The translations under genes were made by a program, and so were the position numbers. From the human T2T-CHM13v2.0 reference genome, Homo sapiens, in the NCBI RefSeq assembly GCF_009914755.1, contig NC_060931.1: a stretch of DNA of 64,000 bases, one strand, 5' to 3'. This document shows, piece after piece, positions 20,280 to 51,501 of this stretch. Under the pieces are notes generated by a model, which was not told where the DNA came from, did not search any database, and saw nothing but the letters and a program-made list of their open reading frames with translations. How positions within the stretch are numbered: position 1 is the stretch's first letter; every line of letters begins with the position of its first letter.

Positions 20280-23369
<3,090 letters not shown>

Positions 23370-47019: not shown

Positions 47020-47966
47020 TGATACTGTGCTTGAAACGGCATGTTTGAAAAGCATGGTTGTTTCATACTATCAAAATAATTAGGCGTTTAATTTTTCATT
47101 AACCATTAAGCGATTAAAGTTCTATAAAAGTGAACTGTTTCTCTTATTATTTTGCAATTTATGCTGTTAATAGTTTGATATTATATTTCTTTACTTCCTA
47201 AAAGAATGCAGATAAGGTTGTATTGTACTACCTACTATTAATTTTGAATTATATAGTAATTAATTTTGTTTTAATTTTTTGATTTTTAGTTTTTGAATTA
47301 TATAGTAATTTATATAGTAAATTTTATAGTTACCATTTATTGAGCCCTTGTTATGTGTCAGACATATATTATTTAATCATTAAAAACAACTTCATGAGAT
47401 GTAGTTTTCATCTTTTATTTCATAGGTGAGAAAATAAAAGCCTATCTAACTTATTAAATATTGCATATCTAGTAAGAGGCAGCATTTAGATTCAAACGTA
47501 ATTACATAACAACACATTTATGATACTATGGAGGTAGAATTATGAGATACTTACTACTTGGACCAGAATAAAAATTACTAAATTTAAAAAACTATATTAT
47601 ATGTTTTATAGTGATAAATATGTCTTGTTTTATTATTCTTTAGGCTCCATATTTCTGAGATGTGTGTTTTTCTTTTTCTTTTTTTTTTTTTAACACTTCT
47701 ATTCTCACATCTTAATACCTTCTTTCATCTTGGAGGTGGAGCTATGTATGTGACCATAGGAACGTGAAGATATCTTATGATTTGGTAGGGAGGGAATGAA
47801 ATTTGGATGTGAATGTGACCACTCCCACTTTGTAGATAGATATATTCACTTACTGCTGTGGTTTAATAACTGGCTTCACCAAGTCATTTTTTTAATGGTA
47901 TTAAGGAAGGAATGAGCCAGTCTCATATCTCTTGAGTATTGAAATTAAGGGTTGAATTTTATTTAA

Positions 47967-48263
<297 letters not shown>

Positions 48264-48844
48264 TAAAATATTTTACACCATTATTTTATTTTTCTTGAAT
48301 GCTGATAACCTTTGGTAATGTTGGAAAAGATAACTAAAGTCACTTTCAAGGGAATTAATGGATACATATTTTAAGTGGGACTTCTACTATTGATGCAGTC
48401 CTAGAAAAAGCCTCCTATGTGAAAAAAGAGTTTACTAGAAATCCCTGTTGTTAACTGAGTAATAGACAGTCAGTTCTGAACTTTTTTTCATGTAGGATCA
48501 CATTTTTCTGTTCACTTAGTTCAATAGTAGTACAAGTACATAAACATAGCAGTAGACAAGATAGAAATGAGAGAATTTAGTCTTTTGTATTTCCTTTGGA
48601 ATAATTTGTGCTTAGTCAACTGTGATTTTCCAGTTTGCGGAAATTAAACATTTTCATTGATGTTTGTTTGACCTGACTCTCTCACCTCCTTTTGACTTGA
48701 ACCTTGCAGCACTCTGGAGTCTCCTTGAACCAGAACCACAGTCTCCCCTCCCCCAACCCTGGTTCAGCCACCAAGAAAGGCCTCCTCCCCTAGAGAAGGT
48801 GTGATTGGGACAGAAAGTGGGGTTTTGTATCATTTTTTTTTCTT

Positions 48845-48846
<2 letters not shown>

Positions 48847-48881
<35 letters not shown>
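48847..48881 (+). repeat. T35 homopolymer not attached to an Alu
   Basis: Read directly; embedded in unique C-rich/G-rich sequence. Confidence 0.95.
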
Positions 48882-48882
<1 letters not shown>

Positions 48883-50165
48883 ACTGGGGGGAAGGATTTG
48901 GGGAGGATGAAGAGGGAACAGTAGGATTTCAGCCTGAAAGTTACTGAGTTTATCCCCTGCATAGGGTGGGAAGCGCAGAGTACTTACGCAGTGCATTGTA
49001 GAGAGCAAGAAAGTTGGGGAGCTTTACAGAATTTCCTGGGTCTGGTCATTATGGTGTTGCTTAATTATTTGATGTGATGCAGTATGGCATATACCCATAT
49101 TTGAATGTAAGTATAAAAATGGACCCTAAAGCCAAGTATTACTTTGAATTACTTGTAATATTATCCCCATCTATTAGATTAGGTGATTAGGAGTTGAATA
49201 TTATTGATACAAACATGCAGTTAGCATTATGTTTCAAAAAGTTTGTTTACTCTTGCCAAAAAATGAGAAATTCAAATATTAAGTGGAATGTAAAATTTGA
49301 TATTTTTATGGAAAGTTGTAATATTAACACTGAGTTTATCTTAATAATAAAAACATATTGTAGTACCTTTCCAAATGTAAAAATAAACTTTCATAACCTG
49401 TAATACATTCTACCATGAATAATGACTTCAGTAAATTTATTTAGGAGGTAAATTAAAAAACTAAAAATAACTTCAGTGACACTTTGCTTTCCTCATAGTA
49501 GAAAATGTCAAATCATATTGTAGCCAGTCATATAGAAAAGCTTTCTCTTGGCTGATTTTGTCTAATGTGATAAATTACATACTTTGGTATGTAATTTTTA
49601 TTTTAATACATAATCTTAGCAGTGTTCTTCTTTTGATATAACGGCGATGGTCTATATATAAGATACAGTTATCTCTATTAGAGAATAGTAAAATTGTCCT
49701 TAGGAGTTTTTATATCCATCTACAAATTATTGAAGGACCAGTTCACAGTTTTTGGATTATTCAAGTTATTTGCTTCTCAGAGAGTACTTTTTGTTATGAC
49801 TCTAATATTTGTTACTCTGTTTTTCTGTTGCTCAGCCTGTAGTCTCCTGGAAGGCTCTATTCTAACTTTACGTTGGCTCATTATTTTTACATGTTCCTAC
49901 TACTTATACTCATCTCTTTGAAGTCTGACATCCACAGCTCTGATTATTTATTCATATTCTAGCTTTGTTTCTTCTGTTGTCTGCATGACATCATTACTTG
50001 CCCCACAAATTTAGTTTAATTTGTTATTCTAACCCTTGTCATTTGTGCTACTTTTCTTTTTCACATCTTTTTTCCACTTTGATATATATTTCACATTCTG
50101 TCAGTTCTTGCCCCAACATTCTCAGTTGAAAAGTAAAGAACAACACAGTAGCAGTTAGTTTGGTA

Positions 50166-51387: not shown

Positions 51388-51501
<114 letters not shown>

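What the first reader, a model, noticed from the sequence alone, without database searches (positions are those of the whole stretch)
48634..48830. Candidate 89-nt poison exon in intron 5 that would cut the PHD finger in half
Seen: a ~75-nt AG-free zone with branch motifs (CTGAC 48673, CTCAC 48681) and a pyrimidine tract ends in ttgcag at 48709. The exon would be 48710-48798, with donor AAG|gtgtga. Spliced to exon 5 it reads ...DKC-S-T-L-E-S-P-stop (TGA 48726-48728; 144-aa product), far upstream of many junctions. The block is unique and GC-richer than the rest of the intron. Established: chromatin and splicing regulators often use conserved poison exons coupled to NMD, and KMT2E is haploinsufficient. 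Inference: a regulated unproductive-splicing switch and a candidate site for cryptic pathogenic variants or ASO upregulation.
Basis: partly seen in the sequence, partly recalled or inferred. Interest (0 to 1): 0.8.

Follow-up and report, generated by a model that had tools for sequence, protein, structure and literature searches.

The report
Known KMT2E intron-5 poison exon
The 89-base segment in intron 5 of the human KMT2E gene is a real alternative exon that stops the protein early, but it was already catalogued in 2020, and nothing yet shows that cells regulate it.

Summary
These are the acceptor ttgcag|C at 48709/48710, the 89-nt exon 48710-48798, the donor AAG|gtgtga, a 74-nt AG-free zone, the reading DKC-STLESP-TGA (144 aa), the GC peak and the uniqueness of the block.

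The exon is not new. Supplementary Data 2 of Lim et al. 2020 (PMC7347940) lists "KMT2E chr7:105064028-105064116:+ EI_NMD", also 89 nt. I mapped that entry to window 48710-48798 using published gene coordinates set against the hub table, and confirmed the mapping with a second KMT2E event. By Lim's stated method, the exon is a cassette in GENCODE v28/RefSeq whose inclusion junction occurs only in NMD or NR transcripts, and listed events had at least 3 junction read pairs and at least 3% inclusion. RefSeq also uses the same donor (hub table).

Three things remain unshown: stabilisation when NMD is blocked, conservation, and regulated inclusion. Sequence alone would not have singled this exon out, because 83 AG..GT pairs in the window score as well. 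SETD5 shares the intron position, but the NMD exons I could map lie in neighbouring introns.

Verdict: real, already known, modest interest.

The parts
48033..48262 (+). KMT2E exon 5 (NM_182931.3). It ends in phase 2 (..C D K C + AG) and encodes the first four Cys of the PHD finger.
   Evidence: Hub table; Pfam PHD_5 profile positions 8-29 of 56
48263..48709 (+). Upstream sub-intron of 447 nt, removed when the poison exon is included. Apart from its first 8 nt it is retained in the RefSeq 'other transcript' exon 48271-48798. If read through from exon 5 it gives AGG TAA, a stop after one codon.
   Evidence: Hub table
48634..48707 (+). AG-free zone of 74 nt holding candidate branch motifs (TTGAC 48668, CTGAC 48673, CTCAC 48681, TTGAC 48692) and a CU-rich stretch (CTCTCTC 48677-48683).
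   Evidence: gaps this long occur in 41 of 4184 AG-AG gaps
48708..48709 (+). 3' splice-site AG (ccttgcAG|C)
   Evidence: matrix score 1.82, higher than 6 of the 11 annotated acceptors in the window
48710..48798 (+). 89-nt poison (NMD-type cassette) exon, equal to hg38 chr7:105064028-105064116 and T2T chr7:106378710-106378798.
48726..48728 (+). In-frame TGA, codon 145, 70 nt upstream of the exon's 3' junction.
48799..48804 (+). 5' splice site gtgtga. The same donor ends the RefSeq exon 48271-48798.
   Evidence: hub table; matrix score 3.99, higher than 6 of the 11 annotated donors
48807..48881 (+). Downstream intronic G-runs (48807, 48819) and T-runs (9 T at 48833-48841, 35 T at 48847-48881). 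Any role in splicing control is inference only.
51420..51500 (+). KMT2E exon 6. It holds the His and last three Cys of the PHD finger and is the acceptor for both the skipping and the inclusion junctions.
   Evidence: Hub table
48271..48798 (+). RefSeq 'other transcript' exon that shares the donor at 48798. It has 8 upstream ATGs with ORFs of 1-26 codons, the first KMT2E-frame ATG lies at 51442, and there is no CpG island.
   Evidence: Hub table

Best explanation
Window 48710-48798 is a genuine, already annotated alternative cassette exon in intron 5 of human KMT2E. When the spliceosome uses the acceptor at 48709 and the donor at 48798, 89 nt are inserted between exons 5 and 6. The frame then runs S-T-L-E-S-P and stops at TGA 48726-48728. 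The stop lies 70 nt before the next exon junction, and that junction is followed by the junctions of the remaining 21 exons of the 27-exon transcript. By the 50-55-nt exon-junction rule, such an mRNA is expected to be degraded by nonsense-mediated decay. Any protein made would be 144 aa with half a PHD finger, which could not bind zinc. Shown: the sequence anatomy, the identity with the catalogued event, and the annotated use of the donor. Taken from the catalogue's stated method, not seen for this exon itself: the annotated cassette, the junction reads and the 3% inclusion. Inferred: that the included mRNA is really degraded, and that inclusion is a low-level, mostly constitutive leak that lowers KMT2E output by a few per cent rather than a tuned switch.
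For: Anatomy.

Catalogue entry: 'KMT2E chr7:105064028-105064116:+ EI_NMD', 89 nt, in Supplementary Data 2 of PMC7347940 (header read).

Method, read: SUPPA2 skipped-exon events taken from GENCODE v28 and RefSeq, with an inclusion junction found only in nonsense_mediated_decay or NR transcripts. Thresholds were at least 3 junction read pairs and at least 3% non-productive splicing in liver, kidney, CNS or eye RNA-seq.

Mapping:
- Table 1 of PMC11255198 gives KMT2E 7:105014205-105115019, KMT2E-AS1 7:105010542-105014141 and LINC01004 7:104981747-104991165.
- Against the hub table these six boundaries give T2T-minus-table offsets of 1,314,685 to 1,314,707.
- That places the event's start at window 48710-48735.
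- Of the 11 89-nt AG..GT frames in intron 5, the only one within 250 nt is 48710.
- Independent check: Lim's second KMT2E event (115 nt, 44,516 nt downstream) predicts T2T 106423226. A 115-nt AG..GT frame with good sites lies at 106423229, a difference of 3 nt. This is the best pairing among 44 frames tested.

Donor: 48798 ends a RefSeq exon (hub table).

PHD finger: Pfam shows that intron 5 bisects it.
Against: - I did not see the GENCODE transcript itself, nor a per-event PSI, nor the cycloheximide result for this exon. Lim et al. validated 1985 of 2831 events assayed, so about 30% of assayed events failed.
- The review of KMT2-family ASO targets names only an intron-21 poison exon for KMT2E and notes that poison exons are reported inconsistently between publications.
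- Table 1 of PMC11255198 does not name its genome build in the passage I read. I take it to be the same frame as Lim's hg38 coordinates because both Lim events fall inside its KMT2E span.
- The splice-site scores are only middling, and 83 pairs in the window score as well.
- The local RNA fold is no more stable than shuffled sequence (z = +1.24).
Confidence: 0.85

Rival explanations
1. The exon is a selected, conserved and regulated dosage switch. Its inclusion would vary with tissue, development or KMT2E level and set KMT2E protein output through NMD.
For: - The exon passed a 3% inclusion threshold despite expected decay.
- The AG-free zone is unusually long, in the top 1% of gaps.
- The exon is the GC peak of an AT-rich intron and is unique in the genome.
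- It is flanked by a CU-rich tract upstream and by G-runs and long U-runs downstream, which are the kinds of sites bound by splicing regulators (the link to regulators is inference).
- KMT2E was named one of ten 'core' genes with pan-tissue regulated splicing, though for an intron-retention event.
- SETD5, its paralogue, also carries several NMD-type events.
Against: - I found no data on regulation, conservation or NMD sensitivity. Six full-text searches found no main-text mention of an intron-5 KMT2E poison exon.
- There is no sequence similarity with the equivalent SETD5 intron beyond poly-T/poly-A runs.
- The two SETD5 exon-inclusion NMD events among the three SETD5 rows I saw map to neighbouring introns.
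- There is no unusual RNA structure.
Confidence: 0.2
2. The functional unit is not the 89-nt cassette but the longer RefSeq exon 48271-48798. That exon could be an alternative first exon from an internal promoter, or an extension of exon 5 by retention of the first 447 nt of the intron with use of 48798 as an alternative donor. It would yield an N-terminally truncated KMT2E starting at ATG 51442, without an intact PHD finger.
For: The hub table lists an exon 48271-48798 in another RefSeq transcript. The first ATG in the KMT2E frame downstream is at 51442, and the frame stays open to the end of the window. The SPLASH+ preprint reports an intron-retention event in KMT2E predicted to trigger NMD, but does not name the intron in the passages I read.
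Against: - The exon starts 9 nt after the exon-5 donor, as expected for a 5'-incomplete cDNA from a partly spliced pre-mRNA.
- Eight upstream ATGs with ORFs of 1-26 codons precede ATG 51442.
- There is no CpG island: 0-3 CpG per 200 nt across 47600-48999.
- Read through from exon 5, the intron gives a stop after one codon, so this form is also unproductive.
- It does not exclude the cassette, which is listed separately with its own acceptor.
Confidence: 0.1
3. It is a chance pseudo-exon that is never spliced in, and the match to the catalogue is a coincidence of length.
For: 83 AG..GT pairs in the window score as well on a simple matrix. 89-nt AG..GT frames are common: 11 in intron 5 and 236 in the window.
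Against: The gene-boundary anchor places the catalogued event within 25 nt of 48710, and no other 89-nt frame lies within 250 nt. The second event fits to within 3 nt. The donor is in RefSeq (hub table).
Confidence: 0.03

Closest known systems
KMT2E EI_NMD event chr7:105064028-105064116 (hg38) in Lim et al. 2020, Nat Commun, Supplementary Data 2 (the TANGO catalogue)
   Same: Same gene, same strand, same 89-nt length and same position after mapping. It has the same predicted consequence, a stop more than 50 nt before a downstream junction, and the same proposed use, ASO block to raise productive mRNA.
   Different: Nothing differs. It is the same object. The catalogue gives no PSI, tissue, conservation or cycloheximide result for it in the files I could read.
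KMT2E intron-21 poison exon (review PMC11925151, Table 3). This is probably Lim's second event, chr7:105108544-105108658, 115 nt.
   Same: Same gene and the same class of event. Both are in Lim's list.
   Different: It lies 44.5 kb downstream at T2T chr7:106423229-106423343, outside the window. It has a stronger donor (TGA|GTGAGT). It is the only KMT2E poison exon named in the review. That Lim's 115-nt event is the review's intron-21 exon is my inference, and I did not check the exon numbering.
SCN1A exon 20N/21x and PCCA exon 14X, the validated poison exons used for ASO upregulation in Lim et al. 2020
   Same: Cassette exon in a haploinsufficient or loss-of-function disease gene, with a premature stop and predicted NMD.
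   Different: Those exons were shown to rise with cycloheximide (post-inhibition abundance 30% for PCCA and 89% for SCN1A) and to respond to ASOs with more productive mRNA and protein. None of that is shown for the KMT2E exon.
SETD5 (paralogue) NMD-type events
   Same: SETD5 has an exon homologous to KMT2E exon 5 that ends at the same point and phase (..CDKC + AG|gtaag) at T2T chr3:9426400. It carries six catalogued NMD events.
   Different: Two SETD5 exon-inclusion events (193 and 137 nt) map to T2T chr3:9425285-9425477 and 9425960-9426096. That puts them on either side of the homologue of KMT2E exon 4, upstream of the equivalent intron. No homologue of KMT2E exons 6 and 7 was found in the 20 kb searched, which includes the stretch before the exon-8 homologue. 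I saw only 3 of the 6 SETD5 rows.

Membership tests
Poison exon (alternative cassette exon coupled to NMD) | An internal exon with its own 3' and 5' splice sites, for which both inclusion and skipping junctions exist | tested here: met
   AG at 48708-48709 and GT at 48799-48800. Listed as a SUPPA2 skipped-exon event from annotation; the catalogue required at least 3 junction read pairs and at least 3% PSI. Mapped to the window. The donor is in RefSeq (hub table). I did not see the reads or the transcript record myself.
Poison exon (alternative cassette exon coupled to NMD) | Inclusion creates a stop codon more than 50-55 nt upstream of a downstream exon-exon junction | tested here: met
   TGA 48726-48728 is in frame. 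It lies 70 nt before the exon's 3' junction, with the remaining exons of a 27-exon transcript downstream (hub table).
Poison exon (alternative cassette exon coupled to NMD) | The inclusion isoform is stabilised when NMD or translation is blocked | not testable with these tools
   No expression data are available here. Lim et al. validated 1985 of 2831 assayed events with cycloheximide, but the result for KMT2E is not in what I could read.
Conserved or regulated poison exon (as in SR proteins and chromatin regulators) | High cross-species conservation of the exon and its flanking intron | not testable with these tools
   No other vertebrate genome is held. There is no similarity to the equivalent SETD5 intron except poly-T/poly-A runs, which is not informative at that evolutionary distance.
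Conserved or regulated poison exon (as in SR proteins and chromatin regulators) | Inclusion changes with tissue, development or the level of the gene's own product | not tested
   No data were found. Six full-text searches gave no main-text mention of this exon.
PHD finger (Cys4-His-Cys3) split by intron 5 | The two halves of the domain lie on exons 5 and 6 | tested here: met
   Pfam PHD_5: exon 5 residues 55-76 match profile positions 8-29 of 56 (E 0.0009) and exon 6 matches positions 32-55 of 56 (E 3.7e-05). The Cys/His pattern is visible. Both half-matches are below the curated cut-off of 27 bits.

The most novel reading that the evidence does not exclude
The intron-5 exon could be a conserved, actively regulated brake on KMT2E dosage, for example held down or released by CU-, G-run- or U-tract-binding splicing factors during neural development. 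Blocking it with an antisense oligonucleotide would then raise KMT2E from the healthy allele enough to matter in O'Donnell-Luria-Rodan syndrome. Variants that strengthen its middling splice sites would be an unrecognised class of disease alleles. The published review of KMT2-family ASO targets overlooked this exon.
Probability: 0.15. Interest if true: 0.55.

Novelty: already known. Interest (0 to 1): 0.22.

Why it matters
KMT2E loss of one copy causes a neurodevelopmental disorder (listing; review). A naturally included poison exon is a possible handle for raising output from the intact allele, and a place where deep-intronic variants could cause disease.

This exon is already in the public catalogue made for that purpose. 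Even so, the 2024 review of ASO options for KMT2-family disorders names only the intron-21 exon. The practical value of this report is therefore a reminder that a second catalogued KMT2E target exists in intron 5, together with its exact T2T and window coordinates. It is not a discovery.

A methodological point follows too. Sequence features alone could not have separated this exon from 83 equally good-looking AG..GT pairs in the same window.

Tried and rejected
- **RNA structure.** The fold of 48700-48810 has a 9-bp hairpin across the stop codon, but it is less stable than shuffled sequence (z = +1.24; 183 of 200 shuffles fold at least as well). Rejected as a feature.
- **Repeat origin.** There are no other copies in the genome at the tool's sensitivity. 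An ancient, diverged transposon fragment cannot be excluded.
- **Paralogue comparison.** blastn of KMT2E intron 5 against the SETD5 intron after the CDKC exon gave only poly-T/poly-A matches.
- **Internal promoter for the RefSeq exon 48271-48798.** No CpG island and 8 upstream ATGs, so unlikely.
- **Literature.** Searches for KMT2E or MLL5 with poison exon, nonsense-mediated, UPF1/NMD, unproductive splicing, antisense oligonucleotide/NMD, and NMD exon/PTC-containing found no main-text description of an intron-5 exon. PMC9931756 and PMC1949830 mention the gene only in passing.
- **Anchor hunting that failed.** (searches; papers without coordinates).
- **Papers not held.** Felker 2023, O'Donnell-Luria 2019, and Yan 2015 PNAS, tried by DOI and by a PMC id recalled from memory.
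[quoted passage not shown] The last of these may well bear on conservation and regulation.

Full report
**1. The observation**

- Exon 5 of NM_182931.3 ends at 48262 (..TGC AG|gtaaaa).
- The nearest upstream AG before the proposed acceptor ends at 48633, which leaves 74 nt free of AG (48634-48707). CTGAC lies at 48673 and CTCAC at 48681, and TTGAC occurs at 48668 and 48692.
- The acceptor is ccttgcAG|C at 48708-48709. The exon runs 48710-48798 (89 nt) and the donor is AAG|GTGTGA.
- With 416 coding nt before it, the junction reads S-T-L-E-S-P-stop, with TGA at 48726-48728 and 144 residues in all.
- The stop is 70 nt before the exon's own 3' junction.
- The 100-nt window 48700-48799 has GC 0.58, the maximum in intron 5.
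- The block has a single match, itself, in the 3.1-Gb genome held.
- Pfam places exon 5 on PHD_5 profile positions 8-29 and exon 6 on positions 32-55 of 56, so the intron does cut the PHD finger in half.

**2. Is it more than chance?**

The answer is mixed. An AG-free gap this long occurs in only 41 of 4184 AG-to-AG gaps in the window.

I also scored the splice sites with simple weight matrices whose frequencies I recalled from memory. The acceptor (1.82) and the donor (3.99) each beat 6 of the 11 annotated exons in the window. However, 297 of 4185 AG sites and 79 of 3760 GT sites score at least as well. These form 83 AG..GT pairs of 40-250 nt, a count that includes the candidate itself and several annotated exons.

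Sequence alone therefore does not single out this exon.

**3. What it is**

Supplementary Data 2 of Lim et al. 2020 (PMC7347940) lists two KMT2E events. They are chr7:105064028-105064116:+ EI_NMD (89 nt) and chr7:105108544-105108658:+ EI_NMD (115 nt) (header).

The paper's methods define EI_NMD as a SUPPA2 skipped-exon event from GENCODE v28 plus RefSeq annotation. At least one inclusion junction must occur only in transcripts labelled nonsense_mediated_decay or NR. The paper says events were kept at 3 or more junction read pairs and 3% or more non-productive splicing in liver, kidney, CNS or eye RNA-seq aligned to hg38.

**4. Mapping to the window**

*Absolute anchor.* Table 1 of PMC11255198 gives these coordinates:

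| Gene | Coordinates in Table 1 | Hub-table window places | T2T-minus-table offsets (start / end) |
|---|---|---|---|
| KMT2E | 7:105014205-105115019 | -1088..99704 | 1,314,707 / 1,314,685 |
| KMT2E-AS1 | 7:105010542-105014141 | -4751..-1152 | 1,314,707 / 1,314,707 |
| LINC01004 | 7:104981747-104991165 | -33548..-24132 | 1,314,705 / 1,314,703 |

The six offsets lie between 1,314,685 and 1,314,707. Lim's 89-nt event therefore starts at window 48710-48735. Intron 5 holds 11 89-nt AG..GT frames, and the only one within 250 nt is 48710. Its neighbours are at 48330 and 48965.

*Independent check.* If 48710 equals 105064028, the 115-nt event should start at T2T 106423226. A 115-nt frame with a good acceptor (..TTTTTATAACAG|) and donor (TGA|GTGAGT) starts at 106423229. 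This difference of 3 nt is the best pairing among the 44 89-nt frames within about 4 kb. The next best pairings, at 7 and 9 nt, belong to frames more than 2.5 kb away, which the absolute anchor excludes.

*Caveat.* The passage of PMC11255198 that I read does not name the genome build of its table. I take it to share Lim's hg38 frame because both Lim events fall inside its KMT2E span and the offsets agree to within 25 nt.

The hub's RefSeq table adds an exon 48271-48798 in another transcript, which uses the same donor.

**5. How it most likely works**

Shown here:
- The anatomy.
- The premature stop and its position relative to downstream junctions.
- The identity with the catalogued cassette.

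Taken from Lim et al.'s stated method, not seen for this exon itself:
- The annotated cassette.
- Inclusion above the 3% threshold in at least one tissue set.

Inferred from the established exon-junction rule of NMD:
- The inclusion isoform is degraded.
- Each inclusion event removes one pre-mRNA from the productive pool.

Any translated product would carry the first four Cys of a cross-braced Cys4-His-Cys3 finger without the His and the last three Cys. It could not bind zinc (general knowledge of PHD fingers; pattern).

The flanks hold a CU-rich tract upstream (48677-48683). Downstream lie G-runs (48807, 48819) and U-runs of 9 and 35 nt (48833-48841 and 48847-48881). Regulatory splicing proteins bind such elements, but nothing here shows that they act on this exon.

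The local fold is unremarkable (z = +1.24).

**6. What is not shown**

I saw no per-exon PSI, no cycloheximide result for KMT2E, no conservation score and no evidence of regulation. Overall, Lim et al. validated 1985 of 2831 assayed events.

The 2024 review of ASO options in KMT2-family disorders lists only 'PE (intron 21)' for KMT2E. It also warns that poison exons are reported inconsistently between publications.

The SPLASH+ preprint reports an intron-retention event in KMT2E predicted to cause NMD, but does not name the intron in the passages I read.

Six full-text searches found no main-text description of an intron-5 poison exon.

Several sources that may bear on conservation and regulation could not be read:
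- Felker 2023 and Yan 2015 are not held.
- The exon lists of PMC13078869 are in its supplements, which were closed.

**7. The RefSeq exon 48271-48798**

This exon begins 9 nt after the exon-5 donor. It has 8 ATGs with ORFs of 1-26 codons before the first KMT2E-frame ATG at 51442, and it sits in CpG-poor DNA.

Read through from exon 5, the intron gives AGG TAA at once. I read the exon as a 5'-incomplete record of a molecule that retained the first 447 nt of the intron and then used the 48798 donor. I do not read it as a true internal promoter. It supports the donor and does not compete with the cassette.

**8.

The exon-5 peptide finds a homologous exon at T2T chr3:9426192-9426398 (E 8.4e-7). 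That exon ends ..CDKC + AG|gtaaga, the same position and phase as in KMT2E.

tblastn finds homologues of KMT2E exon 4 (9425761-9425865) and exon 8 (9427645-9427815). It finds none of exons 6 and 7 at E below 1 in the 20 kb searched.

Lim lists six SETD5 events, of which I saw three. The 193-nt and 137-nt exon-inclusion events are 675 nt apart. Of the 15 frame pairs within 10 nt of that spacing, only one is exact and it has good sites: 9425285-9425477 and 9425960-9426096. These lie on either side of the exon-4 homologue, not in the equivalent intron.

The two equivalent introns share no sequence beyond poly-T/poly-A runs.

**9. Verdict**

The exon is real, but it has been annotated and catalogued as an ASO-targetable NMD event since 2020. 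The 'regulated switch' reading is untested. Novelty: already known. Interest is low to modest. The residual value is the reminder that the KMT2-family ASO review omits this second catalogued KMT2E target.

Noticed in passing
L003 (G000:C3:9422001-9432000), T2T chr3:9426192-9426400: SETD5 has an exon homologous to KMT2E exon 5 that ends at the same codon phase (..CDKC + AG|gtaaga). No homologue of KMT2E exons 6 and 7, the second half of the PHD finger, was found in the 20 kb searched, which includes the stretch before the exon-8 homologue at 9427645-9427815. SETD5 therefore seems to keep only the first half of the finger.
   Followed up: partly
L003, T2T chr3:9425285-9425477 and 9425960-9426096: These are the probable T2T positions of Lim et al.'s SETD5 EI_NMD exons (hg38 chr3:9433370-9433562 and 9434045-9434181; offset -8085). 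They flank the homologue of KMT2E exon 4.
   Followed up: partly
L002, T2T chr7:106423229-106423343 (window place 93229-93343, outside the window): This is the probable position of the second catalogued KMT2E poison exon (115 nt; acceptor TTTTTATAACAG|, donor TGA|GTGAGT). It is presumably the 'intron 21' exon of the review, but I did not check the exon numbering.
   Followed up: partly
window 48271-48798: A RefSeq 'other transcript' exon starts 9 nt after the exon-5 donor. It has 8 upstream ATGs and no CpG island, and it looks like partial intron retention rather than a true first exon (hub table).
   Followed up: partly
window 48833-48881: T-runs of 9 and 35 nt begin 35 nt downstream of the poison-exon donor. 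A mononucleotide run of this length is likely to vary in length between people, and it sits where U-tract-binding proteins could affect the weak donor. This is speculative.
   Followed up: no
window 23117-23234: One of the 83 well-scoring AG..GT pairs shares its donor (23234) with the RefSeq alternative exon 23094-23234 (hub table).
   Followed up: no
G000:C1:154486194-154486319 (- strand): A stretch on chromosome 1 matches residues 36-76 of the KMT2E exon-5 peptide at 51% identity (E 2.8e-4). It is presumably the first half of the PHD finger of another gene. I did not identify it.
   Followed up: no
literature: The review PMC11925151 lists one poison exon for KMT2E (intron 21), whereas Lim et al.'s table, which it cites, lists two NMD-type exon-inclusion events.
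   Followed up: yes
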